Shown in pieces: positions 6,538-58,395 of a stretch of DNA of 64,000 nucleotides; positions within the stretch are counted from its first letter, which is position 1, and every line of letters begins with the position of its first letter. The stretch lies in NCBI GenBank assembly GCA_965287045.1, contig OZ336881.1, forward strand, positions 22,258,001 to 22,322,000. The letters run 5' to 3'. The notes beneath the pieces are model-generated. The model was not told the DNA's origin. It did no database searches and was given only the letters and a program-made list of their open reading frames with translations. Origin of the DNA: Carcharhinus amblyrhynchos (taxonomy: Eukaryota). Made by a program: the position numbers and the translations under genes.

Positions 6538-6722
6538 GGCAAACTGAGTGTGTGCCTTTATATGCACTGTTTGTGGTCAGAATTCCCCACTCACCTGATG
6601 AAGGAGCAGTGCTCTGAAGGCTAGTCGCATTTGTTACCAAATAAACCTGTTGAACTTCAATCTGGTGTTGTGGGACTTCTTACTGTGTTTACCCGAGTCC
6701 AACGTCAGCATCTCCACATCAC
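6538..6722 (+). mobile_element. Penelope-like element pLTR 3' fragment
   Basis: Matches pLTR copies at 21190-21338 and 54050-54240 (TTTATATGC.CTGTTTGTG..CCCACTCACCTGATGAAGG..AAATAAACCTGTTG..CTCCACATCA). Confidence 0.85.
6592..6626 (+). ncRNA. Minimal type-I hammerhead ribozyme, mutated (GAAA>GAAG)
   Basis: CAC CUGAUGA A GGAGC AGU GCUCU GAAG GCUA GUC. Confidence 0.6.
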
Positions 6723-7047
6723 AGTTATAGTTCCCAGTGGGTAGTGCAGGGTAGCACTGCCCAATGGGCACTCATGGCCATGTCCCAGCCACCCAGGAGC
6801 TTTAAATTCCAATTACCTGGTGTGTCCATCACCTCTGGTCTTTGGTAGTGAGGCCATACTGGGGAGGTGGTAAGGGTCCGTGAGGCCAGAAGTTGCGATG
6901 CGGGACACATTGTCATGCTAATCGTGACATTTCTGGGTGTGTAGTCGATACCATCAGCAGAACAAGACTGGGAACAATGAACGCGGCACCAAACCATGCA
7001 CAAACCTGATTTCTGACCTCGTACGTAATCTTCATTGTATTGCATTG

Positions 7048-8075
7048 CTTTGATTTGATTTGTTGTATGTATTGTTAGACAGTGAAAAGTATTGTTTCTT
7101 GCGTGCTATACAGACAAAGCATACCACTCATAGAATGCGTATACAAGAAGGAAATGGTGTAGAATGTAGTGTTACAGTCATAGCTAGGGTAGGAGAAAGA
7201 TCAACTTAATATAAGGAAGATCCATTCAAATGCCTGATGGCACAGAGGAGAAGCTGTTCTTGTGTTGATTGATACGTGATCTCAGACGTTTGTATCTTTT
7301 TCCCGACAGAAAAAGGTGGAAGAGAGTATGTCCAGGGTGCATGGGGTCCGTGATTATGCTGGCTGCTTTTCCAAGGCAGTGGGATGTGTAGACAGAGCCA
7401 ATGGATGGGAGGCTGGTTTACACGATGGACTGAGCTATGTTCACAATCCTTTGTAGTTTCTTATGGTCTTGGTAAGAACAGGAGCCATACCAAACTGTGA
7501 TATATCCAGAAAGGATGCTTTCTTTGGTGCGTGTGCAAAAATTGGTGAGAGTTGTAACGGACATGCTGAACTTCCTTAGCCTCCTGAAAAAGTAGTGGGT
7601 TTCCTTAACTGAAGTGTCAGTGGGGAGGGACCAGGACAGGCTGTTGGTGATCTGGACACCTGGAAACTTGAAGTTCTCGACCATTTCCACTTCATCCCCA
7701 TTGATGTAGACAGGGGCATGTCCTCCACTATGCTTCCTGAAGTCGATTACTACCTCCTTGGTTTTACTGTCTTTGAGAGAGATTATTCTCACCACACCAT
7801 TTCACTAAATTATTTTTCTTTCCTGTACTCTGTCTCATCATTGTTTGAGATCTGACCCACTACAGTGGTGTCGTCAACAAACATAAAAATGGAGTTGGAG
7901 TGAAATTTGGCTACACAGGCGTAAGTGTATAAGGTTGTATAAGGGGTTGAGGACACAGCCCTGTGGGGCACAGGTGTTGAGGATAATTGTGGAGGAGGTG
8001 TCATTGCCTATCTTAATTGATTGAGATCTGTGGGTTAGGAAGTCTAGGATCCAATCACAGAGGGAGGAGCCAAGT
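7048..8075 (-). mobile_element. Rex1/Babar-type LINE 3' fragment
   Basis: ORFs 7418..7795 (KTKEVVIDFRKH..YINGDEVEMVENFKF.GVQITNSLSW) and 7810..8004 ([20 protein letters not shown]); 3' UTR and TTTGA tail shared with 41503-43522. Confidence 0.9.
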
Positions 8076-8840
8076 GAACGGCTACTTTACTACACAAACA
8101 GATCTTGAAAGATGATTTATTCTTTACTTTATTGTCTTTTTCATTTCTGAGTCCATACTTTAAGTTTATAGCGTGAACTAAGAAGGTTTCCATCCATCCA
8201 AAAGCTGCAGGAGTCAATTATAAAGCTAGTTTGGCTGGAATAAATGTAATTCCCAGACACATTCAAGATACAAAAACAAAAATACTGCAGTTGTTGGAAA
8301 CGTGAAATTGAAACTGCAAAGACTGGAAATACTCAGCGGGTCTAGCAGCTGAGGAGAGAGCCATCTGAGGTAATTCTTCAGATCTGTGTCCTTACATTTT
8401 TGATTGTTCCCAGTTTTGATGAAAGAGCTTTTCAGCAAGTGAGATAGGCAGCAAGGATGGGAAGAACAACAAAAGAAAGAAGGGCTGTGTTAAGGTGGAG
8501 GGCAGAAGAGATTAAAGGCCCAATTCTCCTGTGTTGAAGCTAAGTGCCCAAGCCAGAGGCAAAATGAGAATGTTTCCTGTTGGTGCTGGTAGCATCTTTC
8601 AGGTAGGATTTACCCACCTAAAAGATGCTAATACTGCACACCTGCAGCTTCTGAAAGGGAGAGAGGGAAATTTCTGCTGCAGAATGCAGGTTTCAATGAT
8701 TTAAAAGCCTGTCAAGTGCTGGGGATTGCGGAGGGGTGGAGAGAGGCATGGAGATTAAAGTGACCTGGCCACTTCAGAATTTACACAGCTGACAGGCAGA
8801 ACTGCAGATGTTGATCACAAGGCTGCCTAAAATCACCATA

Positions 8841-9212
8841 AGAAGTCTCACAACACCAAGTTAAAGTCCAACAGGTTTATTTGATAGCGCAAGCCACAAG
8901 TTTTCGGAGCACTGCCCCTTCGTCAGGTGAGTGGGAGTTGTGTTCACAAACAGAGCATATAAAGATACGAACTCAATTTACAAGATAATGGTTGGAATGC
9001 GAGTCTTTACAGGTAATCAACTCTTAAAGTTACAGACAATGTGAGTGGAGAAAGGGTTAAGCACAGGTTAAAGAGATGTGTACTGCCTCCAGCCAGGACA
9101 GTTACTGAGATTCTGTAAGCCTAGGCAAGTCGTGTGGGTTACAGATAGTGTGACATGAACCCAAGATCCTGGTTGAGGCCATCCTCATGTATGCGGAACT
9201 TGGTTATCAGTT
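8841..9212 (-). mobile_element. Penelope-like element 3' end/pLTR with 8-bp TSD
   Basis: Matches 18208-18578; ORF end KFRIHEDGLNQDLGFMSHYL; TCACCATA at 8833-8840 and 9213-9220. Confidence 0.9.
8895..8929 (-). ncRNA. Minimal type-I hammerhead ribozyme, core intact
   Basis: Reverse complement CAC CUGACGA A GGGGC AGU GCUCC GAAA ACUU GUG. Confidence 0.75.
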
Positions 9213-9549
9213 TCACCATACCAGGGGAGATTTTCAGGTCTGCCAAGGCTAGAAGGTCAATCCAGCCAAGACACTCTGATTCTGGGGGACAGTGGTTTGG
9301 TGAATCCCTTGCACTCAGCTTGAGCCTATCCAACCCCAAGAACTCCTTCCTCTATAGGCTGTCAGCAGCAAAGGGGCACTGGATTACTACTTTGGGTTCC
9401 TTGACCCCTGTTGGAGCCCAAAGCACCAGGCCAGGATGCCAAGGGACAGTGCACCACAAGCACTGCCAAGACAAGTTGCCTGAACGGAAGTCAACTGGGG
9501 GGGGCTGAGGTGGAGGGTGGCGAATTCTGAGCAAAGGGACCATGGAAGG

Positions 9550-9551
<2 letters not shown>

Positions 9552-9581
<30 letters not shown>
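9552..9581. repeat. (GT)n microsatellite
   Basis: Direct reading. Confidence 0.95.
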
Positions 9582-9582
<1 letters not shown>

Positions 9583-10400
9583 GGTGAGCTGCGATTGAGG
9601 GGTTGGAGGGGTGCCCCTTTTTTTCCTGAGGGGTTGGGGGAGGCTGGTAAATTGGCTGTCAAACTTTTGTTACATTGTCACCTGCTCTAGGCAAGAACCC
9701 AATTCAGGCCAATGGGTCGGGTGAATTGTGAGAGCCCTCATACCTGTCGGGAATCCCAATTTTTGGTCGATGCCCATCTAAAGAGGTCACAAAATCGGGC
9801 CCTAAATTACAAGACAGTTGGTAGTGCTGTGCCAAAGGGGTTGGTAATCGGGCAAGTAAAAATACAAAAGACTTCACCAAAAATGGCTGGACCTGTAAAG
9901 CTGTCATCCAAACTCAAAGGAAATGAGCGAAAGAGGAAAAAAACAAATAAATCAATAAAAATTGGGAGCAAAGGTTATGATTTCAAATTGTTGAACTCGA
10001 TGTTGAAAACAAAATATCCAGTTAAATGAAGAGATGCTGTCCCTCGAGATGCACTGAAATTCATTGAAGCACTGCAGCAAGCCAAGGACAGAAAGGTCAG
10101 AATGGGAGCAAGATGGAAAGTTAAAATTTCAGGTGATAGTTTTTTCATCTGGAAGAAGTCTTTGAAGTGGTGAGAAGGAAGGAAGTAAAAGGGCAGGTGT
10201 TGCATTTGTATAGTAAGCTGTCGGAAGAAAGGGAAGGGCTTTTGGGATGACAAGCAGTGAACCAGGGTACCGAAAAGGACATAATCTTTTGAGAGTGCTG
10301 AGAAGGGGGTGGAGGGGAGAGATGTATTTGGTGGTGCCATCACACTAAAGGTGGAAGAAAGTATAGTGGATGATGAGTTGATTATGGAGGCTTGTAGGAT

Positions 10401-11217
10401 AAGAACATAAGGAATAGGAGCAGGAGTAGGCCATCTAGCACTTTGAGCCTGCTCCGCCATTCAATAAGATCATGGCTGATCTGAAGTGGATCAGTTCCAC
10501 TTTCCCGCTTTCTCCCCATAACCCTTAATTCCCTTGTCTGTCAAAAACCTATCTACCCGTAACTTAAATATATTTAGCGAGGTAGCCTCCACCACTTCAA
10601 CAGGCAGAGAATTCCAGTGATTCGCCACCCTTTAAGTGAAGACGTTCCTCCTCAACTCCAATCTAAACTGCCCCCTCCTTATCTTGAGGCTGTGTCCTCT
10701 AGTCCTGCTATCCTTTCTAAGCGGGAAAAATCTCTCCACACTATCCTATCCATCCCTTTCATTATCTTATACGTCTCTATAAGATCCCCCCTCATCCTTC
10801 TAAACTCCAACGAGTACAGACCCAGTCTATTTAGTCTCTCTTCATAGTCCAACCCCCTCATCTCCTGTATCAGCCTAGTGGATCTCCTCTGCACTCCCTC
10901 CAAGGCCAAAATATCCTTGCGCAAGTGCGGCAACCAAAAGTGCACACAATACTCCAGCTGCGGTCTCACCAGTACCCTGTACAGTTGCAGCAAGACCTCC
11001 CTGCTTTTATATTCTATCCCCCTCGCTATAAAGGCCAGTATCCCATTCACCTTGATCACCTGCAGACTGGGTTTCTGCGACTCATGCACAAGGACCCCCA
11101 GGTCCCTCTGCACCATAGCATGCTGCAGCTTTTTGCCCTTTAAATAGTAATCCCTCTTACTATTATTTCTGCCAAAGTGGATAACCTCACACTTGCTAAC
11201 ATTATACTCCATCTGCC
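10401..11217 (-). mobile_element. CR1 LINE, relatively young, 5'-truncated
   Basis: ORF 10679..11212 (MEYNVSKCEVIHFG..LGLYSLEFRRMRGDLIETYKI); AAGAACAT 3' tail; AGGAT at 10396-10400 and 11218-11222. Confidence 0.95.
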
Positions 11218-11374
11218 AGGATGGAAGATGAAGACATGAGAAATCTAAGAGGGAGAGAGATGATCAGAGCAGAAGTGCATAAAATAAAAGGGACATGGTC
11301 AAGAGGGGTGGGGGCAATGTGGAAATCCTCAGTTGAGGACAAAGACTTGTCAGACATGCTCGTATGGAAGACCG

Positions 11375-12356
11375 AAATAAATGGGTCCTTTCCAGAGTGG
11401 CAGGCAGTGACTAGCAGGATATCGCAGGGTTCAGTGCTGGGTTACCAGCTATTCACAATCCACATTAATGATTTGGACAAAGAAATTGAATGAAATATCT
11501 CACAAATTTGCAGATGACACTATAAGCTGGGTGGCAGTGTCGGCTGTGAGGAGGATGCTAAGAAGCTGCAGGGTGGCTTGGATAGGCTGGCTAAGTGGGC
11601 AAATACAATATAATGTGGATAAATGGGAGGTTATCCACTTTGGTGACAAAAACAGGAAGGAAAATTATCTGAATGGTGGCAGTTTAGGAAAAAAGGAAGT
11701 GCAATGTGACCTGGGTGTCATGGTAGAACAGTCGCTGAAAGTTGGCATGCAAGTATAGCAGAAGGTGAGGAAAACTAATCGCATGTTGGTCTTAATAGCA
11801 AGAGGATTTGAGTATAGCAGTCAGGATGTCTTGCTGCATTTATACAGAGCCATGGTGAGGCCACACCTTGAGTATTGTGTACAGTTTTGATCTCTTATCT
11901 GAGGAAGGACATTCTTGCTATTGAGGGAGTCAAGTGAAAGTTCACCAGATTGATTCCTGGAATGGCAGGACTGACGTATGGAAAGAGACTGGATCGACTG
12001 GATCAATAGAAACATATAAAGGGACTGGACAGGTTAGATGCAGGAAGAATGTTCCTGATGTTGGGCAAGTCCAGAACAAGGGGTCACAGTTTAAGAATAA
12101 GGGATAAGCCATTCAGTACTGAGATGAGTAAGTACTTCTTCAGACTTGTGAACCTATGGAATTCTCTACCACAGAAAGTTGTTGGTGCCAGTTTGTTAAT
12201 ATGTTCAAGAGGGAGCTGGATGTGGCCCTTATGGCTAAAGGGATGAAGGGGTATGGAGAGTGAACAGGAGCAGGATACTGATCAAACATGGTCATATTGA
12301 ATGGTGGTGCAGGCTCAAAGGGCAGAATGGCCTACTCGTGCACCTATTTTCTATGT
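11375..12356 (+). mobile_element. CR1 LINE 3' part, decayed
   Basis: WQAVTSRISQGSVLG..LFTIHINDLD, KFADDT, RTRGHSLRIR..WNSLP and ..CCTATTTTCTATGT tail. Confidence 0.9.
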
Positions 12357-12967
12357 GTGCACAGATGTGACAGAGCCAGAGAAACTGGGAGAATGGAATC
12401 CTTACAGGAGGCAGGGTGTAAAGAAGTATTGTCAGGGTAGTTGTTCGTTTAAAATGAATATTTGTTAATAGCCTATTCCCAGAAATTCAGACAATAAAGT
12501 CAAGGCAGGGAAGGAAAGAGTCAGGGATGGACCATGAGAAGACAAGTGTCGGATAGAAGCAAAATCAATTAATTTTCCAGATAAGGGCAAGAGCAAAAAA
12601 AAAGACATTGATGCAGTCATCAATTTATCGGAAAAAAAGATGAGGGAGCTCTGAGTCAGACTAAAACAATAAACATCCCACAGAACATGGCAAGAACAAA
12701 AGGTTCAATAAATCCTAATGTTTAGCATATATCTACAATCATAGATGGATCCAATATATGAAGGGTGGAATTTCTGTTAGAATCCACATGGAATGAGTTG
12801 GAGTTGGAAACAATTGCTAAGGAAGGCAATGTGACTAAGTTTTGGGAGATGCCTGATCAAATGCAAGGGAAATAGCAAGTCATGAGGGTGAACAAGAAAA
12901 AGATGACAAATGGGAATCTCATTAAACTGAAGTTCAAGAGAAATGGAAGTGAATCAAATATTATTAC

Positions 12968-13120
12968 AAAAGCATAACACTGCACATGCTGGAAATCTGA
13001 AATATAAACAGAAAATGCTGGAAATACTCAGCACGTGAAACAGAATTAACATTCCAGGCCAATTATTTTTCCACAGAACTAGGAAAGCTACAAGTGTAAG
13101 AAGTTTGAAGCAAGTGATAT
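12968..13120 (-). mobile_element. Decayed pLTR of the old Penelope-like family
   Basis: TGCTGGAAATCTGAAATATAAACAGAAAATGCTGGAAATACTCAGCA, similar to 8280-8345. Confidence 0.55.
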
Positions 13121-15922: not shown

Positions 15923-16204
15923 ACTGCTGCTTCACAGCACCAGGGACTCAGGTTTGATTCTGGCCTTGGATGACTGTCTACGTGCAGTTGATTGTGCTCC
16001 CCCATGTCTATGTGGGTTTCCTTTGGTTGTGTCAGTTCCTTCCTACAGTCCAAAGATATGTAACATTAGGTGGATTACCCATGGTAAATACACAGGGCTA
16101 TGGGTATAGCGGAGGTGATGGGCGTGGGCAAGATGTTCTTTCGGAAAGTCAGTTCACACTCAATGAGCTGAATGGCCTACTTCTGCATTGTAGGGATTCA
16201 ATAT
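15914..16204 (+). mobile_element. HE1/V-SINE-type SINE, decayed
   Basis: CACTGCTGCTTCACAGCACCAGGGAC..GGTTTGATTC (B-box-like), V-SINE core and TAGGGATTC tail. Confidence 0.85.
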
Positions 16205-18128: not shown

Positions 18129-18262
18129 ATTTAATGCGAGAGAGCGTGATGTGATTAATTTTGGTCATGATGTGGAGATGCCGGCGTTGGACTGGGGTAA
18201 GCACAGTAAGAAGTCTCACAACACCAGATTAAAGTCCAACAGGTTTATTTGGTAGCAAAAGC

Positions 18263-18297
18263 CACAAGCTTTTGGAGCACTGCCTCTTCATCAGGTG
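18263..18297 (-). ncRNA. Hammerhead ribozyme copy, core mutated (GAAA>AAAA)
   Basis: Reverse complement CAC CUGAUGA A GAGGC AGU GCUCC AAAA GCUU GUG. Confidence 0.55.
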
Positions 18298-19617
18298 AGT
18301 GGGAGCTGTGTTCACAAACAGGGCATATAAAGACAAACTCAATTTACAAAGTAATGGTTGGAATGCGAGTCTTTACAGGTAATCAAGTCTTAAAGTTGCA
18401 GACAACGTGAGTGGAGAGAGGGTTAAGCACAGGTTAAAGAGATGTGTATTGTCTCCAGACAGGACAGTAAGTGAGATGTTACAAGCCCAGGCAAGTCATG
18501 GGGTTACAAATAGTGTGACATGAATGCAAGATTCTGGTTGAGGTCATCCTCATGTGTGCAGAACTTGGCTATCAGTTTCTGCTCACTGATTCTGTGTTGT
18601 CGTGAAAGCCGTTTTGGAGAATGCTTACCCAAAGATGAAGGGCTGAATGCCCGTGACTGCTAAAGTGTTCCCAACAATAAGAGAACATTTCTGCCTGGTG
18701 ATTATCGAGCGGTGTTCATGCATCCGTTGTTGTAGCGTCTGCATGGTCTCTCCAACATATAATGCCTTGGGACATCCTTTCCTGTAGTGTATCAGGTAGT
18801 CAACGTTGGCCGAGTTGCAAGAGTAAATACTGTGTAAGCGGTGGATACTCCTCTCGCTCCAGGGAAGTACTGGATGACGAAGGATACTCTGTCTGCTGTG
18901 ACCCATGTTTGTCTTGAGGAGGTTGGTGTCCTTTTTCACTGTGGCGCATCAGAACTGTTGATCTGTGAGTCATGCGCCATATCCTGTTCTTATGCAGGCA
19001 TCTTTCAGCATCTGGAGGTGTCTGTTGCAATCCTCCTCATCTGAGCAGATCCTGTGTATACGGAGGGCTCGTCCGTAAGGGATGGCTTCTTTAACGTGTT
19101 TAGGGTAGAAACTGGAGAAGTGGAGCATTGTGAGGTTATCCGTGGGCTTATGGTACGGTGAAATGCTGAGGTCACCATCCATGATGGAGATGTGTGTGTC
19201 CAAGAATGCAACCGATTCCACAGAGTGGTCCACGGTGAGTCTGATGGTGAGATGGAACTTGTTGATTTCATCATATAGTTGTTTCAGTGATTGTTCGCCA
19301 TGAATCCAAAGAAAGAAAACGTCATTGATGTATCTAGTGTATAACATTGGGTAATCTTCAGGTAAGCATTCTCCAAGGCAGGCTTCACGACACATGACAA
19401 CGCAGAATTGCTGGGCAGAAATTGATGGGCAAGTTCTGCACACATGAGGACAACGTCAACCGGGATCTTGGGTTCATGTCACACTATCTGTAACCTCCAC
19501 AAGTTGCCTGGACTTGCAAAATCTCACTAACTGTCCTGGCTGGAGACAATACACATCTCTAACCTGCGTTTTACCCTCTCTCCACTCACATTGTCTGTAC
19601 CTTTAAGACTTGATTAT

Positions 19618-21159
19618 AAGAACATAAGAACATAAGAAATAGGAGCAGGAGTAGGCCATCTGGCCCTTCGAGCCTGCCCCGCCATTCAATAAGATCATGG
19701 CTGATCTGTCGTGGCTCAGTTCCACTTTCCCGCCCTCTCCCCATAACCCTTAATCCCCTCTCTTATCAAAAACCCATCAACCCGCTTCTTAAAAATATTT
19801 AGCGAGGCAGCCTCCACCACTTCAACGGGCAGAGAATTCCAGAGATTCACCACCCTTTGAGTGAAGAAGTTCCTCCTCAACTCCGTTCTGAACCGCCCCC
19901 CCTTTATCTTGAGGCTGTGCCCCCTAGTCCTACTGTCTTTTTTGAGCGGGAAGAGTCTTTCCACCTCTATCCTATCCATCCCATTCATCATCTTATACGT
20001 CTCAATGAGATCTCCCCTCATTCTTCTAAACTCTAACGAGTACAAGCCTAGTTTATTCAGCCTCTCCTCATAGCTCAACCCCCTCAACTCCGGTATCAGC
20101 CTAGTAAATCTCCTCTGCACTCCCTCCAGGGCCAAAATATCCTTGCGCAGGTGCGGCGCCCAAAACTGCACACAGTACTCCAGCTGCGGCCTCACCAATG
20201 CCCTATACAGCTGCAGCAAGACCTCCCTACTTTTATATTCAATCCCCCTCGCTATGAAGGCCAGCATCCCATTCGCCTTCCTGACCACCTGCTGCACCTG
20301 CAAGCTGGGTTTTTGCGACTCATGCACAAGGACCCCGAGGTCCCTCTGCACCGTCGCCTGCTGCAGTTTTTCGCCACGTAAGTAATAGTCCTTCCTACCA
20401 TTCTTCCTACCAAAGTGGACCACCTCACACTTGCCAACATTAAATTCCATTTGCCATTTCCTGGCCCATTCGCCCAGCCTATCTAGATCCTTCTGCAGAC
20501 TCTCCACACCCTCCGCACAATTTGCCTTTCCCCCAATCTTGGTGTCATCAGCAAATTTCGACACCCTACACTCGGTTCCCTCCTCCAGATCATCTATATA
20601 AATGGTAAAAAGCTGAGGCCCCAGCACCGACCCCTGGGGCACCCCACTAGTCACCAACCGCCAATCCGAATAGCACCCATTGACCCCCACTCTCTGCCTC
20701 CTATTTGACAACCAATCCTCTATCCACGCTAACACCCTACCCCCAACTCCATGTCCTCTGACCTTCTGCAGTAACCTCTTGTGAGGTACCTTATCAAACG
20801 CCTTCTGAAAATCCAGAAAGACCACATCCACCGGCTCTCCTCTATCCACCGCCCTAGACACATCCTCATAGAACTCCAGTAAATTTGTCAGACACGACTT
20901 CCCTTTAATGAAACCGTGTTGCGTCTGCCCTATCAAGCAATTCCCTTCAAGATGCCTCGCAATTTCCTCCTTAATGACGGATTCTAACATTTTACCTACC
21001 ACAGACGTTAAACTAACCGGCCTGTAATTCCCCGCCTTTTGCCTGGCACCCTTCTTAAACAACGGCGTAACATTAGCCGTTTTCCAATCCTCCGGCACTT
21101 CCCCGGAATCCAGCGACGTCTGGAAAATAACCACCAAGGCATCCACTATCACCTCCGCC
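19618..21159 (-). mobile_element. Young CR1 LINE, 5'-truncated, inserted in the Penelope pLTR arm
   Basis: (AAGAACAT)n tail; ATTAT at 19613-19617 and 21160-21164; Penelope sequence resumes across the site (CTTGATTAT|CTGTAAAGACTCG). Confidence 0.97.
19716..21159 (-). CDS. CR1 ORF2 reverse transcriptase domain plus C-terminus, uninterrupted but N-terminally truncated (no endonuclease)
   Basis: 489-aa ORF with WKTANVTPLFKKG, NYRPVSLTS, QHGF, FLDFQKAFDKVPH, GVPQGSVLGP, KFADDTK; the first ~8 codons come from flanking Penelope DNA. Confidence 0.93.
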
Positions 21160-21247
21160 ATTATCTGTAAAGACTCGCATTCCAAACATTATCTTGTAAA
21201 TTGAGTTTGTGTCTTTATATGCCCTGTTTGTGAACACAACTCCCACT

Positions 21248-21282
21248 CACCTGGTGAAGGAGCAGCATTCTAAAAGCTTGTG
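21248..21282 (+). ncRNA. Hammerhead ribozyme copy, degenerate
   Basis: CAC CUGGUGA A GGAGC AGC AUUCU AAAA GCUU GUG. Confidence 0.45.
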
Positions 21283-21465
21283 GCTTGTGCTACCAAATAA
21301 ACCTGTTGGACTTTAACCTAGTGTTGTGAGGCTTCTACATTAATTTTGGTAGCAGTAATACCATTTAAAGAGTACAATTCTAAAGTGGGTAGAGGAATAA
21401 ATGGGACCTGAGTGTGTAGGTGTATAAATCATTGACAGTAGAAAGACAGGTTCGGAGTTCAATTA

Positions 21466-21788
21466 ATTATAGAATCCTACAATGCAGAAGGAGGCTATTC
21501 GGCCCATCGAATCTGCACCGACAACCATCCCACCCTTACTCTATTCTCGTAACTCCACATATTTGCCCTGCTATTCTCCCTGACACCAAGGGCCAATTTA
21601 GCATGATCAATCCACCTAACCCACATATCTTTGGGCTTTGAGAGGAAATTGGAGCACCCAGAGGAAACCTATGCAGACATGGGGAGAATGTGCAAACTCC
21701 ACACAGACAGTGACGCAAGTTGGGAATTGAACCTGGATCCCTAACACTGCGAGGCAGCAGTGCTAACCACTGTGTCACCGTGCTGCCC
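21466..21788 (-). mobile_element. HE1/V-SINE-type SINE, full length
   Basis: Minus strand starts GGGCAGCACGGTGACACAGTGGTTAGCACTGCTGCCTCGCAG..GGTTCAATTCC (A/B boxes), followed by core and tail. Confidence 0.93.
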
Positions 21789-44584: not shown

Positions 44585-44833
44585 GGTTACTATCTATGTG
44601 AGTTTGCACATTCTCCTCGTGTCTGCGTGGGTTTCCTCTGGGTGCTCTGGTTTCTTCCCACAGTCCAAATGTGTGGGTCAGGTGGATTGGCCATGCTAAA
44701 ATTGCCCTTAAGTGTCAGGGGGATTAGCTAGGGTAAATGCTTGGAATTATGGGGGTTGGGCCTGGGTGGGATTGTGGTCAGTGCAGACTTGATGGGCTAA
44801 ATGGCCTCCTGCTCCATTGTAGGATTCTATGAT
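44585..44833 (+). mobile_element. HE1/V-SINE-type SINE, 5'-truncated
   Basis: GAGTTTGCACATTCTCCTCGTGTCTGCGTGGGTTTCC core and GGATTCTATGAT tail. Confidence 0.9.
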
Positions 44834-44834
44834 C

Positions 44835-45480
44835 TGCACTGTTTGCCACATCTCCAGGTTTGGTATCATTGTTAAATTCTGAAATGACCCTTGGGGAACA
44901 TCATTGTCTGAAAAAAAAACTCCATTGTCACAGCGCTGTTTTCAGTTTAAGCCAATTTTTTGTCCAACTCTCTATTGACCGTCCTATTTCATAAGCCTCA
45001 ATTTTGTTAACTGGCCTTTTTTGTGGCATTAGGTCAAATATTACCTTAAAATCTTTAATGATAACATTCATTGTATTCCTTTCATTAACCTACTTCAATA
45101 GAAAATGTAATAGGATTAGTTTAATGTGATCTGCTTTCAAAAATCTTGCTGTCTCTCTTTAATTAAGTCAAAATCCTGATGAATATTATTTTGCCCTTGA
45201 TTGTTGATTCTAAACCTTAATCAGGACTGATATTAAACTGCCCAGCCTGTAATTATTAGGAACGTCATTGTACCTTTCTTGAAAAAGGGTGTCACATTTA
45301 CCACTCATCAATCCTCTGCCACCTCTCCTGTATTTAGGAAAGATTGGAATATTATGGAAAGTCTTTCTCTGATCTCCTTTAGCAACTTTGAGTGCAAAAC
45401 ATCCGGACCAGGTGACTTAACAACTTGATTCATAGCCAGCCTTTCCAGTACATCCAGCACTGCCCTGGCATCCCTTTTTG
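44835..45480 (-). mobile_element. Old CR1 RT fragment
   Basis: ORF 45308..45745 end: KSPGPDVLHSKLLKEIRE.LSIIFQSFLNTGEVAED. Confidence 0.75.
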
Positions 45481-48135: not shown

Positions 48136-48298
48136 ATGTAGGAGCATGTGCAAACATATGACAAAGTTCACCCAGCTATGATCAGATTTCACAGGGTATG
48201 TAATGTAACGAGATGTCACTAATAAATTCTGTATTCTGGACCATAAAAAATATTATTTACTTATTTAGGCAAATCCTATTTGCCACCTGTACCAGTTT

Positions 48299-49579: not shown

Positions 49580-50310
49580 GCATCTAGTAAATGCAAAATA
49601 CTCAAGAATCCCGAGAGGAGTTAGGGATACAATCTATTTGATCAGAGTTCAGAAACAACAGTGGTATCATTACACAAATGGGTATAGGCTATTGACTTTC
49701 ACAGTAACTTCATTGCAGTGTTATTATTGCAGTGTTAATGTAAACCTACTTGTGACAACAATAAATCAACTTTAAATCTTAATGGGAAAATACACAGATG
49801 AAATTTTCAGGGAAATTACGTAGAAATGTAAAAACTATACAGCAGTGACAATGGACAACATGAATTGTCCTGATATAAACAGGGTTAGTAATACTGCAAA
49901 GGATAGAGGGGGAGAAAGAATCTTTGAGGTGTGTTCAGGAGAATTTTCTTCTTCAATGCGTTTCTAGCCAAATAAAAATAATGCATTGTTGGATTTTTTT
50001 CTGGTCAATAAGGTCAGTCAAGTGGATCAAGACTCAGCAGGGTAACATTTAGGGAACAATGATCAAAATATCATAACATTTGATGAACTACAGAAAAAAA
50101 TGAAGAGCAACCCTTAGAAAAAAAACTTAATTACAAGACAGCCAATTTAGTTGAGAACATATCTATTAACAGGACATAGGAGCAGGATTAGACCATATAA
50201 TTCCGTACATTGGCTCTGCCACTCAAATAAAGTCACAACTGATCTTTGGCTTCAGCTCCACTTTCCTGCCTGCTCCCCATATTCCTTGATTCTCTGAGTC
50301 TTCAAAAAGT
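49580..50310. mobile_element. Old CR1 endonuclease-region fragment (+) and CR1 tail (-, 50170-50310)
   Basis: HLGNNDQNIITF-like motif at ~50045-50080; GACATAGGAGCAGGATTAGACC tail. Confidence 0.5.
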
Positions 50311-51899
50311 TAGGAGTGGTGGCAGCTGGGAGAATGAAGGGCAAGATCGGAGTGGAGGGAGCAGAGAGAGTAAGAAAGGAGAGAGAGTGAAGGAGAAAGG
50401 AAGAAAAGGGAAAAAGATAGGTGAATCAAAGAATTTGGCTTGCTCAAAACAATTCTAGTCATTAGCATCACTCAGGGAAATAATGTCACTGGATATAATC
50501 CTTCCAAATGAGGACAATTGGCACATACAGACAGAAGTACGAAACCCTAATGATTTAAACCATTTACAATTCATTGTAACAGATGGCACATAAATAATCC
50601 AAGTCACAACACAATTCACAATCTCCCTAATTTCATGTTAACATAATTCATGAAATCACTGGAAATTGCTAGTCTGCATAAATTCCAAAACTGATTCATA
50701 ATTTTCACTAAGCCATTAACTCTTATTAAACACCCATCATTTTAAGGTAATTTAGATGCATAATTTACCCACTGGCTATTAAACTGGCACTGTTAAGCTT
50801 TGTCCTTTATAGATAAATGCTTTAGGTGAGAAATAGCAGCCTAATCTATTTTGTTTCAACATGTTGCACCATGCTATGGTAAAATGAAGATTAAAAATAG
50901 TTTTGGCTAAACTTAGATTTCCCAGTTGACATTTTCTCAAGCTTAGCAGATTTACTAATGTGAGAAAGCAAAATAAAAATCAGAGAAGAAATCAATTCAC
51001 TAAGAACCCAGGGACAGGAGTAAGGCTTAGGGAAAAAGAAATAAACCTAGAGTGAGGGAAAAGGACTGACAAAATGAAACAATAAATTAAATTATTATTG
51101 AATGGCTGTTTTATAAATGCTTGTAATCACATGCAGAAATCTAGATTACCAAACAAATTAAACCACCCAAGCACAATTAAAAATTCTACTTTCAATTCAG
51201 AAATCTGTTCACCTGGTCAACTACCAGAAAACATATACTTCCCCAGTTTGTTCTCAAATGCACAATCTTAGCTATATTGTATTCAGTTGCCCTTAAGAAT
51301 TTTGCATGTTAATCCAGGTCCATGCTAATTGTAAACATCTTGATCTAAAAGTGGTCCATAACACATCCACTAACATGACAGTATCTCCAAATTTCAGTAA
51401 GGAGTAAATGTCTCCTGGAAAACAGCAGCCTTTCACTTTTCATTTTGTATTTTTCATGTGGTTTCTCAAAGGTTTATAGCTGTAGTCCTGATGTCATACA
51501 AGCGAGATTGATTTGAGGGCTCACTCTACCTAACTATACCCTATGATTTAAACTCACATGGGCTACTCAAAAATTCAACATTATATTTTGATTATTTATT
51601 TCCTGGGTCATTATAAATACAGAACAATTCCAAAAATAGAATCTCAATGCTTAAATGTTTTACTCTCCATTCACACTGCAGCTACTGCTTTCAGATCAAT
51701 TCTCACAGTGAGAAAGGGGGCCTGCATATATGCACTGACACACACAGAGCTTCTCTCCTGACATTAAAATACACGCAAGAGTCCAAACCTGCAAGAACAC
51801 AAAAACTTTAAAATATTTATGTAAAGTAGGTTTTAAAAAAAATACCTGCAGACTGTTCAAGGGAATCCCTGGCCATTTTGTAGCTTGGTTCAACAAGTG

Positions 51900-52100
51900 T
51901 TTATCTAACGCCTTTAATATGATAAAATAACAAAGGTGCTTAGCAAAATTTTATACTGAGCTACATATGGAAATGTTAGAACAAAACTTTAAATATCTCG
52001 TCGAAAAGTAAGGTTTTAAGGAGTATCTTAAAGGAGAAAGGCGAGGCAGAGAGGTTTAGGGAAGGAATTCCAGAACTTAGGGCCTAAGCAGCTGAAGGTT
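51900..52100 (-). mobile_element. L2-type LINE 3' fragment
   Basis: GAGAGGTTTAGGGAAGGAATTCCAGAACTTAGGGCCTAAGCAGCTGAAGG. Confidence 0.6.
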
Positions 52101-52278
52101 GAATTTCAGATTGGTGTTACTATCCCAGGGATTCTTGTGGTACCTCACTCCAGGCAGGTTTTACTTCAGATTTATGTCAAACTATCAGCATCAGCATTAT
52201 GTCGTGATTAGTAATGCCAAAGCAGAATCTTGAATGCTTTCTTAGCATGAGCACATGACCCAATTGTTTGTTGATAAT

Positions 52279-53375
52279 AGCCTGGAACTTCCATTTCCGG
52301 GGAAGAATGGGATTGTAATTGTACCTGGCAGGCCTCCAGAAGTTGTGATAAGGGATCCCCCCACCCGAGTCCACTCCACAAGAGAATTGCCAGGGAAATT
52401 TCAAGGGCGGCCCAGTGATCAGCACTGCTGCCTCTCAGCACCAGAAACCCCAGTTCAATTCCAATCTCAAGTGACTGTGTCGAGTTTGCATATTGTCCCT
52501 GTGTGTGGGTGGGTTTCCTCCAGGTGCACTGGATTCCCCTCTCACTCCAAAGATGTGCGGGTTAATTGACCACGTTAAATTGTCCTTTAGTGTCAGGGGT
52601 ATTAGCAAGGTAAATATGAGAAGAGACCCTGGGTGGGATTGTTGCCAGTGCAAGCTCGATGAGCCAAATGGCCTTCTTCTGCACTGTAGGGATTGTATGA
52701 CTTGTCCAATGGGCAATTTTCCTGTACACAGAGTCACCCAAGTCACCTCCCCTGATCTTCCCCCACCCCTAACTACCCTCCCCGACCCACCAAACCCCAC
52801 TATCCCTCAAGTAACCCCTCCTGATCTGAGTATACTCCCAATCCCTCTCCGACGACTTCCCGCACACTGACTCCTCTCAAGCCACAACTATCCTCCCCAC
52901 TCTCCTGATTAGCTTCTTACTACCCTCTGATTACCCTTCCACCCACCCCACCCCCAATACCATTAAATCACTCCCCGCCCCCCCCAAAACACTAACTACA
53001 TCCCTATACCCCTGATTGACCATTAACACACACCCACCCATCCTACCCCTCAAAACCAATTCTAGCCCCTCATCCATCCTGCATCACTACCCCATTTACC
53101 CTATCCGTCCTACTCATTTACCTTCACCTTTGTTTCTCAAGGTGGCTGGGATCTTTAAACTTACCTGCCTTGTGGCAGCTAGTGACATAAATAGGGGGCA
53201 TAGCATCACTTCCTCTGCCACCCTGCACAGAAAAGTTCCAGGAGCTGGTATGCTGCACATTTCTTAGCAGGCCCAATCGAAAATCAAGTGAGAAATATGT
53301 AACTCCCGACTAAGATGAGTTAAAAAGGAGCAGAGTGCTAATTCGACTATGATTGCCACTGTGGAAGTTCTGGCC
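52279..53375. mobile_element. Harbinger-type MITE copy A (contains a SINE)
   Basis: TIRs AGCCTGGAACTTCC.. / ..GGAAGTTCTGGCC; both ends homologous, in inverted orientation, to 53506-54719. Confidence 0.65.
52405..52700 (+). mobile_element. HE1/V-SINE-type SINE
   Basis: GGGCGGCCCAGTGATCAGCACTGCTGCCTC head, core, GTAGGGATTGTATGA tail. Confidence 0.9.
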
Positions 53376-53645
53376 AGTTGTTAAACAAGCTTTTCAAACC
53401 GAAGTGTCCTGTTATCTTTACAAGCCCCAGCTTAACCTTTAACATTTAAGTATTTGCTTACTATAAAAGCAAAAATACCACATACTGTGATTACAAGACA
53501 ATTAAAGCCAGAACTTCTGTGGAATGGCAATCATTATCAGACTGCTATTCCTTTTTACTTAGAAATGTGCAGCATCCAATTAAACTAAGAAAGAAGTACC
53601 ACAACACCAGGTTAAAGTCCAACAGGTTTATTTGGTAGTAAATGC

Positions 53646-53680
53646 CACAAGCTTTCGGGGCTCTGCTCCTTCATCAGGTG
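53646..53680 (-). ncRNA. Minimal type-I hammerhead ribozyme, core intact
   Basis: Reverse complement CAC CUGAUGA A GGAGC AGA GCCCC GAAA GCUU GUG. Confidence 0.8.
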
Positions 53681-54105
53681 AGTGGGGAGTTCTGATCACA
53701 AACAGGGCAGAGAAAGACACACAGTTTACAGAATACTGATTAGAACGTGTGTCTTTATAGCTAATCAAGTCTTAAAGGTGCAGGCAATGTGAGTGAAGAT
53801 AGCATTAAGCATAGGTTAAAGAGATGTGTATATTAGCATTATTAAGCATAGGTCAAAGAGATGTGTTTTGTCTCCAGACTGGACAGTGAGTGAAATTTTG
53901 TAAGCCCAGGCTACTCATGGGGGTTACAAATAGTATGACATGAACCCTAGATCCCAGTTGAGACCGTCCTCATGTGTGCGGAAGTCTGCACACAGGAGGA
54001 CGGCCTCAACTGGGATCTTGGTTAGCTGCAAAGACTCGCATTCTAATCAGTATTCTGTAAACTGTGTGTCTTTATATGCCCTGTTTGTGATCAGAACCCC
54101 CCACT

Positions 54106-54140
54106 CACCTTACGAAGGGGCAGAGCCCTGAAAGCTAGTA
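54106..54140 (+). ncRNA. Hammerhead ribozyme copy, core mutated (CUGA>CUUA)
   Basis: CAC CUUACGA A GGGGC AGA GCCCU GAAA GCUA GUA. Confidence 0.55.
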
Positions 54141-54875
54141 GTGTTTGCTACCAAATAAACCTGTTGGACTTTAACCTAGTGTTGTGAGACTTCTTATTGT
54201 GCTTACCCCAGTCCAATGTCAACATCTCCACATTATGACTACCATTGGCACATTTCTAACTCAGACTTCTATTCTGGGCCTGGTGAGAAATGCACAGTGC
54301 ATTAGCCCAAAAATCCTTCCAATACAAGGCCCTTTTTTATGGTGCTAAGCTGTTGTAGGCCGGGGATGCAGGATAATTAGGGATTGTGAGAATAGTTGGG
54401 ATGATGGAGAGGGTAGTCGGGGATTGGAAGGGTAGTCAAGGGGGTGATGGGTATCAGTCCTATAGTTACCCAGGAGTTCAAAGTGGTTTTAACCCTTCTA
54501 ACCTTTTCTGCTTAACTATTCCGCTAAGCAAGTCAAAACCTTCTGCAGTCTCATTTAAATCAGAGCTTTGGATGGTTCACAGTGCAGGGTAATTACCCAC
54601 TGGAAACTTAAACTTCCCGGGCATTTCCCATGCAATCACTGCGAGGGGTCTTCCGTGGAGTCCTTGAGTGCAACTTCCAGAGTACAACCCCCCACCTCGG
54701 GGAACAGAAGTTCTGGAACTTATCAACTGTGAAATAGAATATTTCATTTCCTGTTTAAAGATGACCTTATATATACCCAGCATGATGCTTAACAATGTTA
54801 AAAAGGTAATTTTTTCATGGAATATTAGTTTGTTTAACCATTATCAATATTGTATGAATAAAAAAGAATGCAAAC

Positions 54876-55971
54876 ATAAGAAATAAGAACATAAGAAATA
54901 GGAGCAGGAGTAGGCCATCTAGCCCCTCGAGCCTGCCCCGCCATTCAATAAGATCATGGCTGATCTGTCGCTGCTCAGTTCCACTTTCCCGCCCTCTCCC
55001 TATAACCCTTAATCCCCTCTCCTATCAAAAACCCATCAACCCGCGTCTTAAAAATATTTAGCGAGGCAGCCTCCACCACTTCAACGGGCAGAGAATTCCA
55101 GAGATTCACCACCCTTTGAGTGAAGAAGTTCCTCCTCAACTCCGTTCTAAACCGCCCCCCTTTTATCTTGAGGCTGTGCCCCCTAGTCCTACTGTCTTTT
55201 TTGAGCGGGAAGAGTCTTTCCACCTCTATCCTATCCATCCCATTCATCATCTTATACGTCTCAATGAGATCTCCCCTCATTCTTCTAAACTCTAACGAGT
55301 ACAAGCCCAGTTTATTCAGCCTCTCCTCATAGCTCAACCCCCTCAACTCCGGCATCAGCCTAGTAAACCTCCTCTGCACTCCCTCCAAGGCCAAAATATC
55401 TTTGCGCAGGTGCGGCGCCCAAAACTGCACACAGTACTCCAGCTGCAGCCTCACCAATGCCCTATACAGCTGCAGCAAGACCTCCCTACTTTTATATTCA
55501 ATCCCCCTCGCTAAGAAGGCCAGCATCCCATTCGCCTTCCTGACCACCTGCTGCACCTGCAAGCTGGGTTTTTGCGACTCATGCACAAGGACCCCGAGGT
55601 CCCTCTGCACCGTCGCCTGCTGCAGTTTTTCTCCACGTAAGTAATAGTCCTTCCTACCATTCTTCCTACCAATGTGGACCACCTCACACTTGCCAACATT
55701 AAATTCCATTTGCCATTTCCTGGCCCATTCGCCCAGCCTATCTAGATCCTTCTGTAGACTCTCCACACCCTCCGCACAATTTGCCGTTCCCCCAATCTTG
55801 GTGTCATCAGCAAATTTCGACACCCTACACTCGGTTCCCTCCTCCAGATCATCTATATAAATGGTAAAAAGCTGAGGCCCCAGCACTGACCCCTGGGGCA
55901 CTCCACTAGTCACCATCCACCAATCCGAATAGCACCCATTGACCCCCACTCTCTGCCTCCTATTTGACAAC
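54876..55971 (-). mobile_element. Young CR1 LINE, 5'-truncated, open 331-codon frame
   Basis: ORF 54975..55970 differs from the 489-aa ORF at about 10 residues by eye; CAAAC at 54871-54875 and 55972-55976. Confidence 0.97.
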
Positions 55972-56904
55972 CAAACCGCAATGAAATAGCCAGTGAAATA
56001 TTAGAATATGAAAATCTGATTTCAAAAAGAATTGCCTGACGAAGGAGCAGTGAAATATATAAATTGGCAAAGATTCAAATCAATGTGGCTGAGGGAAGTA
56101 CAAATGTACCATTCAATTTCCAGGCACTCAGATGGAACCACCCAGCACGCAATAAAAGTCAGCCCTCAAATCAGAGCTGATCCCATAAAACAGAAGTTGA
56201 ATGAAAAGGTTTGTTTTCTGCCTGTGTGCTTCATTGGAACTGCCAGGAAAGTAGTTGAGATAATAGGTTTTTATCAAGGAGTTGGAGAACACATTGATCA
56301 GCTAACAAGAGTAAAATCTTCGTTTTTTTTATTTGCAACTGAAAACATCATGCCAATAACATTAATGTTGCAATTCTCAGACACCACAACCATTTGCAGA
56401 ATCCACATCCTTCTCTAATATAGAACTGCTTCAAAAGTACAGGTTAGGAGTTTAGCTCCCTTTGAGACTTGATCCAAAATCTTCATTTGAAAGTGTTTTT
56501 GCTTAACTATGAAAATTACAACATTCAGCATTTTGACTGTTTTGCTGCAAATTCTGATGGATTTAAATAATTTAATGGGCATTTCCAAATTTATTTAAGT
56601 TTTCAATTAGTTACTGTATAAATCTAAGTAACAGGATAAATTAATGTACAGCAAGAAAGTTGTATGTACAATATATAGTACCTTCAACATTATAAGATTG
56701 CTGTAAGATGGTTCAAAAGGTATGAGAAAAGAAATTGTGTACATTCAGACATTTATGTGGCTTCCAAACACTAATGTCTCAATGTGATGCCAATTAATGG
56801 AGTATTTCTCAGTGAAGTCCACAAGATAGTTCTCCTGGCTTTCAAACTCTCCATCTTACCAGATGTATTATTTAGCTACTGTGACCTCCTGCTCACATTG
56901 CCAG

Positions 56905-57100
56905 CAAAATCATTTGCACACACCAAGGTGCCAGAAACAGCAATCAGATAAATTATCAGAGAATTTGTTTCAATGGGGTTAGTTAAGGGTTACATTCCAA
57001 GGGAGCAGCCAAAGAAAGCCTCAACTCAACATCGCATTTGAAAAATAGCACCATTTCTGAAATTGCAGATTTCCTTCCGTGCTGCACTGAAGTATACTCG
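56905..57100 (-). mobile_element. Deu-domain SINE fragment, decayed
   Basis: TTTGCACACACCAAGG..GCCTCAACTCAACATCGCATTTGAAAAATAGCACC..GCTGCACTGAAGT, similar to 32520-32760. Confidence 0.5.
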
Positions 57101-57417
57101 ATTAAAAGGCTTCCAAACCTATTTTAGAAAAGTGTTATGTTCAATACTTGGTCTACCTTGAAACAGCTGGTATCACTGGGAAGTGGAAAGTAAACAAACA
57201 AAGTTACAACTTCAGACCAGTTTTCCCACTTTTCACTGGGTGCAGGAATATATGCATTTTGAATGTATATTGGAGTTCTCTGGCCCATCTTGAGATGCCA
57301 TATGCCACCTTTACTAAAATAGTCTACTGTCAATGAGTCCTCAATCACATGAAAAATCATTAATTGAGAAATATACCAGACAGTGGCTGGTGCTCAAAGC
57401 CGCTGCAGTGATCAAGG

Positions 57418-58395
57418 CATGATGTGGAGATGCCGGCGTTGGACTGGGGTAAACACAGTAAGAAGTCTCACAACACCAGGTTAAAGTCCAAAAGGTTTAC
57501 TTGGTAGCGCAAGCTTTCAGAGCACTGTTCCTTCGTCAGGTGAGTGGCAGTTCTGTTCACAAACAGGGCACATAAAGACACAAACTCAATTTACAAAATA
57601 ACGGTTGGAATGCACGTCTTTACAGGTAATCAAGTCTTAAAGGTCCAGACAATGCGAGTGGAGAGAGGGTTAAACACAGGTTAAAGAAATATGTATTTTC
57701 ACCAGCCAGAACAGTTAGTGAGATTTTCCAAGCCCAGGCAAGTCGTGGTTACAGGTAGTGTGACATGAACCCAAGATCCCGGTTGAGGCCGCCCTCATGT
57801 GTGCGGCACTTAGCTATCAGTTTCTGCTCAGCAATTCTGCATTGTTGTGTGTCATGAAGGCCGCCTTGGAGAATGCTTACCCGAAGACCAGAGGCTGAAT
57901 GCCCATGATCGCTTAAGTGTTCCCCAACAGGAAGAGAACACTCCTGCCTGGTGATTGTCGAGTGGTGTTCATTTATCCATTGCCGTAGCATCTGCATGGT
58001 CTCCCCAATGTACCATGCCTTGGGACATCCTTTCCTGAAGCATATCAGGTAGGCAACATTGGCTAAGTTACAAACGTATGTGCTGTGTACCTGGTGAATG
58101 GTGTTCTCATGTGAGATGATGGCATCCGTGTCGATGATCCAGCACGTCTTGCAGAGGTTGCTGTGGCAAGGTCATGTGGTGTCGTGGTCACTGTTCTCCT
58201 GAAGGCTGGGTAGTTTGCTGTGGACAATGATCTGTTTGAAGTTGTACGGTTGTTTGAAGGCGAGAAGTAGGGGTGTGGGGATGGCCTAAGAAAGATTTTC
58301 ATCTTCATCGATGATATGTTGAAGGCCCCGGAGAAGATGTCATAGCTTCTCCACTCCAGGGAAGTACTGAATGACGAAGGGTACTCTGCCTGCCC
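57418..58395 (-). mobile_element. Penelope-like element 3' part (Cys-containing linker, GIY-YIG, pLTR)
   Basis: pLTR with full tail CATGATGTGGAGATGCCGGCG; minus-strand NLCKTCWII, NVAYLICFRKGCPKAWYIGETMQMLRQWINEH and GLNRDLGFMSHYL. Confidence 0.92.
57508..57542 (-). ncRNA. Minimal type-I hammerhead ribozyme, core intact, weakened stems
   Basis: Reverse complement CAC CUGACGA A GGAAC AGU GCUCU GAAA GCUU GCG. Confidence 0.65.

What the first reader, a model, noticed from the sequence alone, without database searches (positions are those of the whole stretch)
6592..57542. Seven Penelope pLTR copies carry a minimal hammerhead ribozyme with a loop-less palindromic stem III
Seen: copies at 6592(+), 8895(-), 18263(-), 21248(+), 53646(-), 54106(+) and 57508(-) give the consensus CAC-CUGAYGA-A-GGRGC-AGW-GCYCC-GAAA-GCUW-GUG. 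Stem I is CAC/GUG. The central pair of stem II varies as A-U (6592), G-U (8895) and G-C (54106), which preserves pairing, though other copies carry mismatches. After GAAA comes AGCU/AAGCUU, which cannot fold on itself but is self-complementary. Cores are intact in 8895, 53646 and 57508. Established: minimal type-I hammerheads in Penelope-like elements, proposed to cleave as dimers. Inference: this shark family needs two RNA copies (tandem pLTRs) to build stem III and would cleave after CUU/CUA.
Basis: partly seen in the sequence, partly recalled or inferred. Interest (0 to 1): 0.7.

Follow-up and report, generated by a model that had tools for sequence, protein, structure and literature searches.

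The report
Decayed Penelope-element minimal hammerhead copies
The seven motifs are real but damaged copies of an already described stripped-down "hammerhead" RNA motif that Penelope-type jumping genes carry at their ends and that likely cuts only when two copies pair; the kind is ordinary, and genomic copies suggest the RNA is mostly copied back into DNA uncut.

Summary
Real, and a known kind. All seven motifs sit at the stated places, in the pseudo-LTR (pLTR) of a Penelope-like element. They match every feature of the minimal hammerhead of Cervera & de la Peña 2014; the same AGCU helix III is listed there for a turtle.
Corrections: none of the seven is fully intact. They form five insertions (three solo, two inverted pairs); the window holds no direct tandem. 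The seven alone show no significant covariation.
Genome-wide support is strong: 4,894 exact motif matches (0 in the control); G at the cut position in only 111; helix II pairs covary while the core and AGCU stay fixed; young full-length copies carry two same-strand motifs 3 kb apart.
Copy ends show no pile-up at the cut site (2 of 95). 33 of 95 start in a 32-nt window just behind a TATA-like box, at the motif's 5' edge. Templates are therefore mostly uncut, or cut and re-ligated. Cleavage itself was not testable.
The scan found this family before on other genomes (26 notes, at least 7 genomes); the start-site lead came from those notes and was retested here.

The parts
6541..6721 (+). Solo pLTR fragment of the Penelope-like element, with tail
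   Evidence: blastn to the other copies, 79-85% identity
6592..6626 (+). Minimal hammerhead copy; A15.1>G, G10.1-U11.1, helix I mismatch; predicted cut after 6623
8831..9214 (-). Solo 5'-truncated copy: ORF end, 3' UTR, pLTR end
8895..8929 (-). Minimal hammerhead copy; core letters intact, helix III palindrome broken (AACU)
18164..19354 (-). Long arm of an inverted insertion: RT C-terminal piece, endonuclease end, 3' UTR, pLTR, tail
   Evidence: ORF 18970-19455 matches by eye the RT part of the intact ORF in L071; Pfam finds nothing in this piece
18263..18297 (-). Minimal hammerhead copy; G12>A (CpG site), helix II mismatch
19355..21336 (+). Inverted partner arm of the 18263 insertion (19355-19616 and 21160-21336), split by a LINE insertion at about 19617-21159
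   Evidence: both pieces are reverse complements of adjoining parts of 18209-18636; LINE ORF 19716-21188 has RVT_1 at E 6e-35
21248..21282 (+). Minimal hammerhead copy; A6>G, G12>A
53581..53983 (-). One arm of an inverted insertion (ORF end to pLTR end)
53646..53680 (-). Best-kept copy: core and AGCU intact, A.C mismatch at 10.3-11.3; predicted cut between 53649 and 53648
54017..54240 (+). Inverted partner arm, ending in the tail and the ORF start codon
54071..54077 (+). TATA-like TTTATAT about 30 nt before the first base of helix I (54103); predicted promoter, present in 5 of 7 window copies
   Evidence: sequence; function inferred from copy starts
54106..54140 (+). Minimal hammerhead copy; G5>U, helix I mismatch
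54154..54159 (+). AATAAA 17 nt behind the predicted cut, followed by a GT-rich tract; predicted poly(A) signal, present in 6 of 7 window copies
   Evidence: sequence; function inferred
57415..58393 (-). Solo copy with linker (CX4CxxC) and GIY-YIG-type C-terminus (ORF 57749-58171), 3' UTR, pLTR, tail
   Evidence: 79-84% identical to the C-terminus of intact ORFs elsewhere
57508..57542 (-). Minimal hammerhead copy; core letters intact, mismatches in helices I and II

Best explanation
The seven motifs are decayed copies of the minimal type-I hammerhead in the pLTR of a Penelope-like retroelement (likely Neptune clade), a motif that is predicted to cut only as a double hammerhead and likely cuts only a minority of the element's RNAs. 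Shown: motif anatomy, position in the pLTR, lineage-level conservation of core and AGCU, helix II covariation, direct tandems elsewhere in the genome, no pile-up of copy ends at the cut. Inferred: two copies pair through AGCU/AGCU (helix III) and swapped helix I strands, each cutting the other after CUH. A transcript would start about 30 nt behind the TATA-like box, at the 5' edge of the first motif, and meet the second motif just before AAUAAA, so a double cut would strip cap and poly(A) from a unit-length RNA. The active fold is not the most stable one and would likely need help, for example from the element's protein. Insertions are mostly copied from RNA in which the motif is continuous. 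The window copies are passengers decaying neutrally, mainly at CpG sites.
For: Anatomy equals the published consensus: extra nucleotide between 9 and 10.1 (A in 154 of 156 copies), G10.1-C11.1, palindromic 15.2-16.2. In 156 of 157 copies picked by their flanks, each core position keeps its letter in 144-156 copies; the weakest (G8 149, G12 144, C11.1 with 21 G-U) are CpG sites. Watson-Crick pairing at 10.2-11.2 is 149 of 156 (shuffle mean 79.5) and at 10.3-11.3 139 of 156 (96.2), 0 of 2000 shuffles each; with 16 recurrent haplotypes counted once, 16 of 16 and 15 of 16 (0 and 3 of 2000). Position 17 varies among U, A, C; G in 111 of 4,894 genome matches. 15 of 18 selected long loci hold two or more same-strand motifs about 3 kb apart, 9 of them around an open 893-aa ORF. 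18 of 30 copies with the ORF 5' end carry the whole upstream motif and none starts at the cut. 33 of 95 arms picked by the downstream flank start from -14 to +17 of the predicted start, 20 in the 180 nt upstream, 2 within 3 nt of the cut. L208 and L217 are full-length copies that begin at the predicted start and hold both motifs. The anole PLE hammerhead cuts only with protein and is not needed for insertion in vitro (PMC11167929).
Against: No cleavage data for this family. Rfam finds no hammerhead in the window at E up to 10. The double-hammerhead fold is 5-12 kcal/mol above the best two-strand fold in five intact genome copies and 11-30 above it in the window copies. Flanks are conserved too: no common variant lies between -95 and -19 of the cut in 119 young copies, so core invariance alone does not prove catalysis. 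Copies are related, so shuffle counts overstate significance; pair 10.4-11.4 is often mismatched (122 of 156 paired; 164 of 2000 shuffles reach it). The seven window copies alone show no covariation signal. Arm starts are blurred by microhomology with the inverted partner, partners are not independent, and all 95 come from the first 7.4 Mb of one contig. Absence of ends at the cut is also what re-ligated circles would give.
Confidence: 0.72

Rival explanations
1. The two motifs of a pLTR-ORF-pLTR mRNA cut efficiently and the unit-length RNA is ligated into a circle. The circle is the main template for long and tandem insertions; uncut mRNA gives only the short copies that begin at the start site.
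For: Proposed in general form by Cervera & de la Pena. It predicts no copy ends at the cut, as seen. It explains how reverse transcription that starts in the tail, 65-100 nt behind the cut and beyond AATAAA, reaches the ORF 3' end. Perfect head-to-tail units of 3024-3026 nt exist (L201, L202).
Against: No drop in linkage specific to the cut site (mean |D'| 0.52 across it, 0.48-0.66 at other boundaries in the motif region, confounded by helix II homoplasy). L213 and L218 have different helix II versions in their 5' and 3' pLTR, which one circle cannot give. Read-through transcripts explain the same products, and L208 and L217 look like copies of linear uncut RNA with both motifs.
Confidence: 0.2
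2. The motif is kept mainly for a non-catalytic role (initiator region of the pLTR promoter, protein-binding or RNA-pairing signal), and cleavage is negligible.
For: It overlaps the predicted transcription start and the neighbouring promoter region is as invariant as the core. Published metazoan minimal hammerheads cut poorly in vitro. Naiad PLEs spread without canonical hammerheads.
Against: Variation follows hammerhead rules: N7 and H17 vary, G17 is avoided (111 of 4,894), helix II changes length and sequence but keeps pairing. A DNA promoter element would not need these.
Confidence: 0.08
3. The motif is a chance hairpin between CUGA and GAAA words in a common repeat.
For: Rfam gives no hit; the window copies alone give no covariation signal.
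Against: It matches all published class features and holds them across at least 16 recurrent helix II haplotypes.
Confidence: 0.01

Closest known systems
Minimal hammerheads (min-HHR) in pLTRs of metazoan Penelope-like elements (Cervera & de la Pena 2014, PMC4209133)
   Same: Type I, no loop 3, palindromic 15.2-16.2, extra nucleotide at 9/10.1, G10.1-C11.1, short helix I, thousands of dispersed truncated copies, few in full elements, pairs on opposite strands 100-700 bp apart. Their supplementary alignment lists a turtle motif with the same GAAA-G-C-U-U end and a Xenopus motif with CUGACGAA-GG...CC.
   Different: No cartilaginous fish in the vertebrate rows seen or in a term search of the two supplement files held as text (file 1 not searchable). 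Copy number here is higher (about 130,000 pLTR ends by extrapolation from 36 in 800 kb). Position relative to a promoter and poly(A) signal is not given in the parts read.
PAc hammerhead, Poseidon element of Anolis carolinensis (Frangieh et al. 2024, PMC11167929)
   Same: Hammerhead in the pLTR, tail with two 3' end points, no RNA ends at the cut site, uncut RNA as dominant template.
   Different: In PAc the ORF starts inside helix II and the tail lies in the ORF. Here the motif lies about 130 nt before the ATG, the tail ends at the ATG, and the ORF has the CX4CxxC linker that Poseidon lacks.
Neptune-clade PLEs (Arkhipova 2006, as described in Craig et al. 2021, PMC8557442)
   Same: Single ORF with DKG motif, RT, CX2-5CxxC linker and C-terminal GIY-YIG-type domain; partial tandems, inverted 5' copies, 30-40 nt tail.
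   Different: Clade not tested by RT phylogeny; Nematis shares the linker.
Non-LTR retrozymes of animals (bioRxiv 10.64898/2026.07.22.740005)
   Same: Hammerhead-bearing pLTR-derived repeats; reported in one chondrichthyan genome.
   Different: Retrozymes are short non-coding tandem units; these copies are truncated ends of an autonomous ORF-bearing element and are not arrayed in the window.

Membership tests
min-HHR of metazoan PLEs | Core CUGANGA ... GAAA ... UH | tested here: met
   144-156 of 156 flank-picked copies per position; core letters intact in 3 of 7 window copies
min-HHR of metazoan PLEs | [quoted passage not shown] | tested here: met
   A in 154 of 156; 7 of 7 in the window
min-HHR of metazoan PLEs | G10.1-C11.1 pair and a covarying helix II | tested here: met
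   G-C 133, G-U 21 of 156; 10.2 and 10.3 covary G-C/A-U. Not significant on the 7 window copies alone
min-HHR of metazoan PLEs | Palindromic 15.2-16.2 without loop 3 | tested here: met
   G15.2 155, C16.2 152 of 156; AGCU complete in 5 of 7 window copies (8895 AACU, 6592 GGCU)
min-HHR of metazoan PLEs | Located in both pLTRs of a full element | tested here: met
   15 of 18 selected loci with same-strand pairs about 3 kb apart; none in the window
min-HHR of metazoan PLEs | Self-cleavage as dimer, not as monomer | not testable with these tools
   Needs an assay; folding shows only that the dimer fold is possible and not the minimum
Canonical hammerheads in Rfam 15 | Match to a hammerhead covariance model | tested here: not met
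   No hammerhead family among 5 matches at E up to 10; expected for a motif without intramolecular helix III
EN+ Penelope-like element | Single ORF with RT and C-terminal GIY-YIG endonuclease | tested here: met
   909-aa open frame in L071 with RVT_1 above cut-off; endonuclease assigned by motifs read by eye, Pfam gave no GIY-YIG hit
EN+ Penelope-like element | pLTRs in partial tandem or inverted arrangement, optional 30-40 nt tail | tested here: met
Neptune clade | CX2-5CxxC zinc-finger linker between RT and EN | tested here: met
   C-X4-C-X2-C in window ORF 57749-58171 and in L071 (definition)
Neptune clade | RT phylogeny groups with Neptune | not tested
   No reference set at hand; the vertebrate survey found only Neptune and Poseidon in vertebrates
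Non-LTR retrozyme | Short non-coding units in head-to-tail arrays | tested here: not met
   Window copies are solo or inverted and run into ORF sequence; the tandems seen have a 3-kb coding unit

The most novel reading that the evidence does not exclude
The element's promoter starts the RNA at the first bases of the hammerhead, and the second hammerhead sits just before the poly(A) signal. The two ends of one 3-kb mRNA would then pair into a double hammerhead that removes cap and poly(A) tail in one step, switching the RNA from message to a unit-length, circularisable replication intermediate. The genome's roughly 10^5 copy ends would be a readable fossil record of that cycle.
Probability: 0.2. 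Interest if true: 0.62.

Novelty: new member of a known kind. Interest (0 to 1): 0.27.

Why it matters
What these hammerheads do in vivo is still open. This genome holds a young family with intact ORFs, natural tandems and about 30,000 near-identical pLTR ends. That makes it a good system for asking whether PLE RNA is cut, circularised or copied uncut. The copy-end map gives a precise prediction for the transcription start and argues against cut linear RNA as a common template.

Tried and rejected
Rfam scan: no hammerhead hit. Cleavage footprint in copy ends: prompted by a few short insertions, tested with genome-wide patterns. Starts at cut positions 0 and -1 together gave 155, at -2 104, at +1 319; by hand count 54 of the 100 listed +1 matches are 2-nt slips, leaving roughly 125-145. 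Several of the 30 inspected position-0 loci were indels, not junctions. No peak, so rejected. Cap-derived G at the predicted start: G precedes 66 of 100 listed starts (hand count), but also 59 of 100 at +1 and 42 of 100 at -3, largely through microhomology with the inverted arm; 5 of 5 inspected copies without an inverted partner have the G; suggestive only. Pattern counts alone (228 at the start, 410 at +1, 141 at -3) do not fix the start to one base. Linkage break at the cut as a test for circles: inconclusive. RNA data: no RNA holder listed on record, only contigs; contigs of four coded runs cover the element but cannot show ends or strand. Atlas search unavailable. Lunse et al. 2017 is not held; only its title was seen in a reference list. 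An unusually dense cluster in the window was rejected: 7 in 64 kb against 36 in 800 kb, but they are 5 insertions.
Full report
Observation. All seven motifs are present at the stated coordinates and strands, 0-4 substitutions from the pattern. In hammerhead numbering they read helix I 5' strand CAC, core CUGANGA, one extra A, a 5-bp helix II with a 3-nt loop, GAA, then A15.1-G-C-U16.1, H17 and GUG. None is fully intact: 8895 has lost the palindrome (AACU), 53646 has an A.C mismatch in helix II, 57508 has mismatches in helices I and II, and the other four have core substitutions. Rfam gives no hammerhead match. On the seven copies alone 89.8% of cells pair, far above slid controls (25-58%), but covariation does not beat shuffles (366 of 500).

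Context in the window. The copies are ends of one repeat family and form five insertions: solo copies at 6541-6721, 8831-9214 and 57415-58393; an inverted pair 53581-53983(-)/54017-54240(+); and an inverted pair 18164-19354(-)/19355-21336(+) whose plus arm is split by a LINE with an RVT_1 ORF. The motif lies about 200 nt behind the stop codon of an ORF whose C-terminus has a C-X4-C-X2-C linker and GIY-YIG-type motifs. Inverted partners lie on opposite strands, so no transcript of the window holds two sense copies of one insertion.

The family in the genome. The own genome has 2.92 Gb; the host species was not determined and 'shark' is unverified. The 35-nt pattern has 4,894 exact matches and the reversed control none. 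80 evenly spaced 10-kb stretches held 36 pLTR-end anchors, 0 after shuffling, which extrapolates to about 130,000. A younger subfamily has open ORFs: 909 aa stop-to-stop in L071 with RVT_1 above cut-off, 893 aa from an ATG about 130 nt behind the motif. Its 33-nt downstream flank has 29,947 exact matches. Of 30 copies holding the ORF 5' end, 18 carry the whole upstream motif in sense. Of 18 such loci refetched, 15 hold same-strand motifs about 3 kb apart, and L201 holds three; these were selected, so this is presence, not frequency. The tandem arrangement that a double hammerhead needs thus exists, though not in the window.

Conservation and covariation. 157 copies were picked by flanks only from all loci then held and 156 parsed (the loci themselves came from several biased searches, 18 from the random stretches and the window). 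Core positions keep their letter in 144-156 copies; the main losses are at CpG sites. N7 (C 111, U 39, A 6) and H17 (U 79, A 69, C 6, G 2) vary as hammerhead rules allow; genome-wide G17 occurs in 111 of 4,894. Helix II and its loop vary from 11 to 14 nt over 16 recurrent haplotypes, yet pairs 10.2-11.2 and 10.3-11.3 switch between G-C and A-U together. Pair 10.4-11.4 is often mismatched. Copies are related, so the shuffle counts are not probabilities. Flanks near the promoter are equally invariant, which weakens invariance as proof of catalysis; the pattern of allowed change is the stronger argument.

Folding. The double-hammerhead structure is nested and can be scored: -15 to -24 kcal/mol in five intact genome copies, 5-12 above the best two-strand fold and about 2-6 above two folded monomers; in the window copies +10 to -9. 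It is possible but not favoured, in line with low published activity.

What copy ends say. Copies starting exactly at the cut would mark cut linear templates. None of 30 full-5' copies does; genome-wide patterns show no excess at the cut over neighbouring positions; 2 of 95 arms picked by the downstream flank start within 3 nt of it (95 of 100 listed matches were analysed, 5 dropped as duplicate context or too little upstream sequence). Earlier notes of this scan suggested starts just before the motif; I tested this. 33 of 95 arms start from -14 to +17 of the first base of helix I, 20 in the 180 nt upstream, 33 further upstream, none from +18 to +33, and 7 at 5-12 nt behind the cut. A TATA-like TTTATAT lies 30 nt before that base, and AATAAA with a GT-rich tract lies 13-17 nt behind the cut. 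Two full-length copies begin at this point and hold both motifs. A preceding G, a known sign of a capped template for L1 (PMC6425141, passages), is frequent but also frequent at control positions. The start site is therefore inferred, to within about 10 nt.

Mechanism. Most likely the pLTR promoter makes an RNA that begins at the first motif. Two motifs, from one pLTR-ORF-pLTR RNA or from two RNAs, would pair through AGCU/AGCU and swapped helix I strands and cut after CUH, probably rarely and with protein help. Reverse transcription from the tail copies mostly RNA in which the motif is continuous. Whether continuity means uncut or re-ligated is open; a linkage test was inconclusive.

Comparison with the literature. 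Cervera & de la Pena 2014 (PMC4209133; read parts 1-2 of 4 of the text, part 2 of 3 of supplement file 2, term search of two files; file 1 not searchable) define exactly this motif, report it in fish, coelacanth, Xenopus and reptiles, and found low cleavage in dimers and none in a monomer. Frangieh et al. 2024 (PMC11167929; parts 1-2 of 4) found protein-assisted cleavage not needed for insertion. Passages only: Craig et al. 2021, the 2026 retrozyme preprint (supplements closed, one chondrichthyan included, so overlap is possible), PMC6765202, PMC6155905, PMC3846280 (TATA and initiator-like motifs in rotifer pLTRs). Lunse et al. 2017 was not available and may list such sequences. Searches listed no paper describing this family's motif or placing a PLE start site at the hammerhead; subscription papers and Repbase were not searchable.

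Verdict. A real new member of a known kind, seen here in dead copies. Interest 0.27; the start-and-end arrangement is the only lead beyond print, and it came partly from earlier notes of this scan.

Noticed in passing
window 53666-53674 region (+), and the antisense of each old-subfamily copy: The antisense of helix I plus the start of the core reads CAG|GTGAGT, a perfect 5' splice-site consensus (recalled consensus); the young subfamily has the weaker CAG|GTGAAT. Copies inserted antisense in host introns could act as cryptic donors.
   Followed up: no
young subfamily, 119 copies: 7 of 21 common variable sites fall in the 10 nt of helix II and loop II, while no common variant lies in the 75 nt upstream; helix II looks hypervariable, by slippage in G/C runs or by selection.
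   Followed up: partly
listing, e.g. G000:C1:5592502: About half of the listed matches have a 2-nt loss right at the cut site that disrupts helix I (roughly 170 copies); recurrent slippage or a propagating subfamily with a damaged motif was not distinguished.
   Followed up: no
L213 and L218: The 5' and 3' pLTR of one full-length insertion carry different helix II versions, pointing to template switching or mixed masters.
   Followed up: partly
L232: Clean internal deletion from the extra A after the core to the first base behind the cut.
   Followed up: no
window 19617-21159, 54876-56000 and 10399-, 33421-, 37645-: Several young copies of one LINE family (up to 99% identical; 490-aa open RT frame at 19716-21188); one sits inside the Penelope inverted pair and so postdates it.
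   Followed up: partly
window 3056-3304, 5761-6090, 21456-21782, 44600-44835, 52482-52699: A second dispersed short repeat family, SINE-like; resemblance to the HE1 SINE is recalled, not tested.
   Followed up: no
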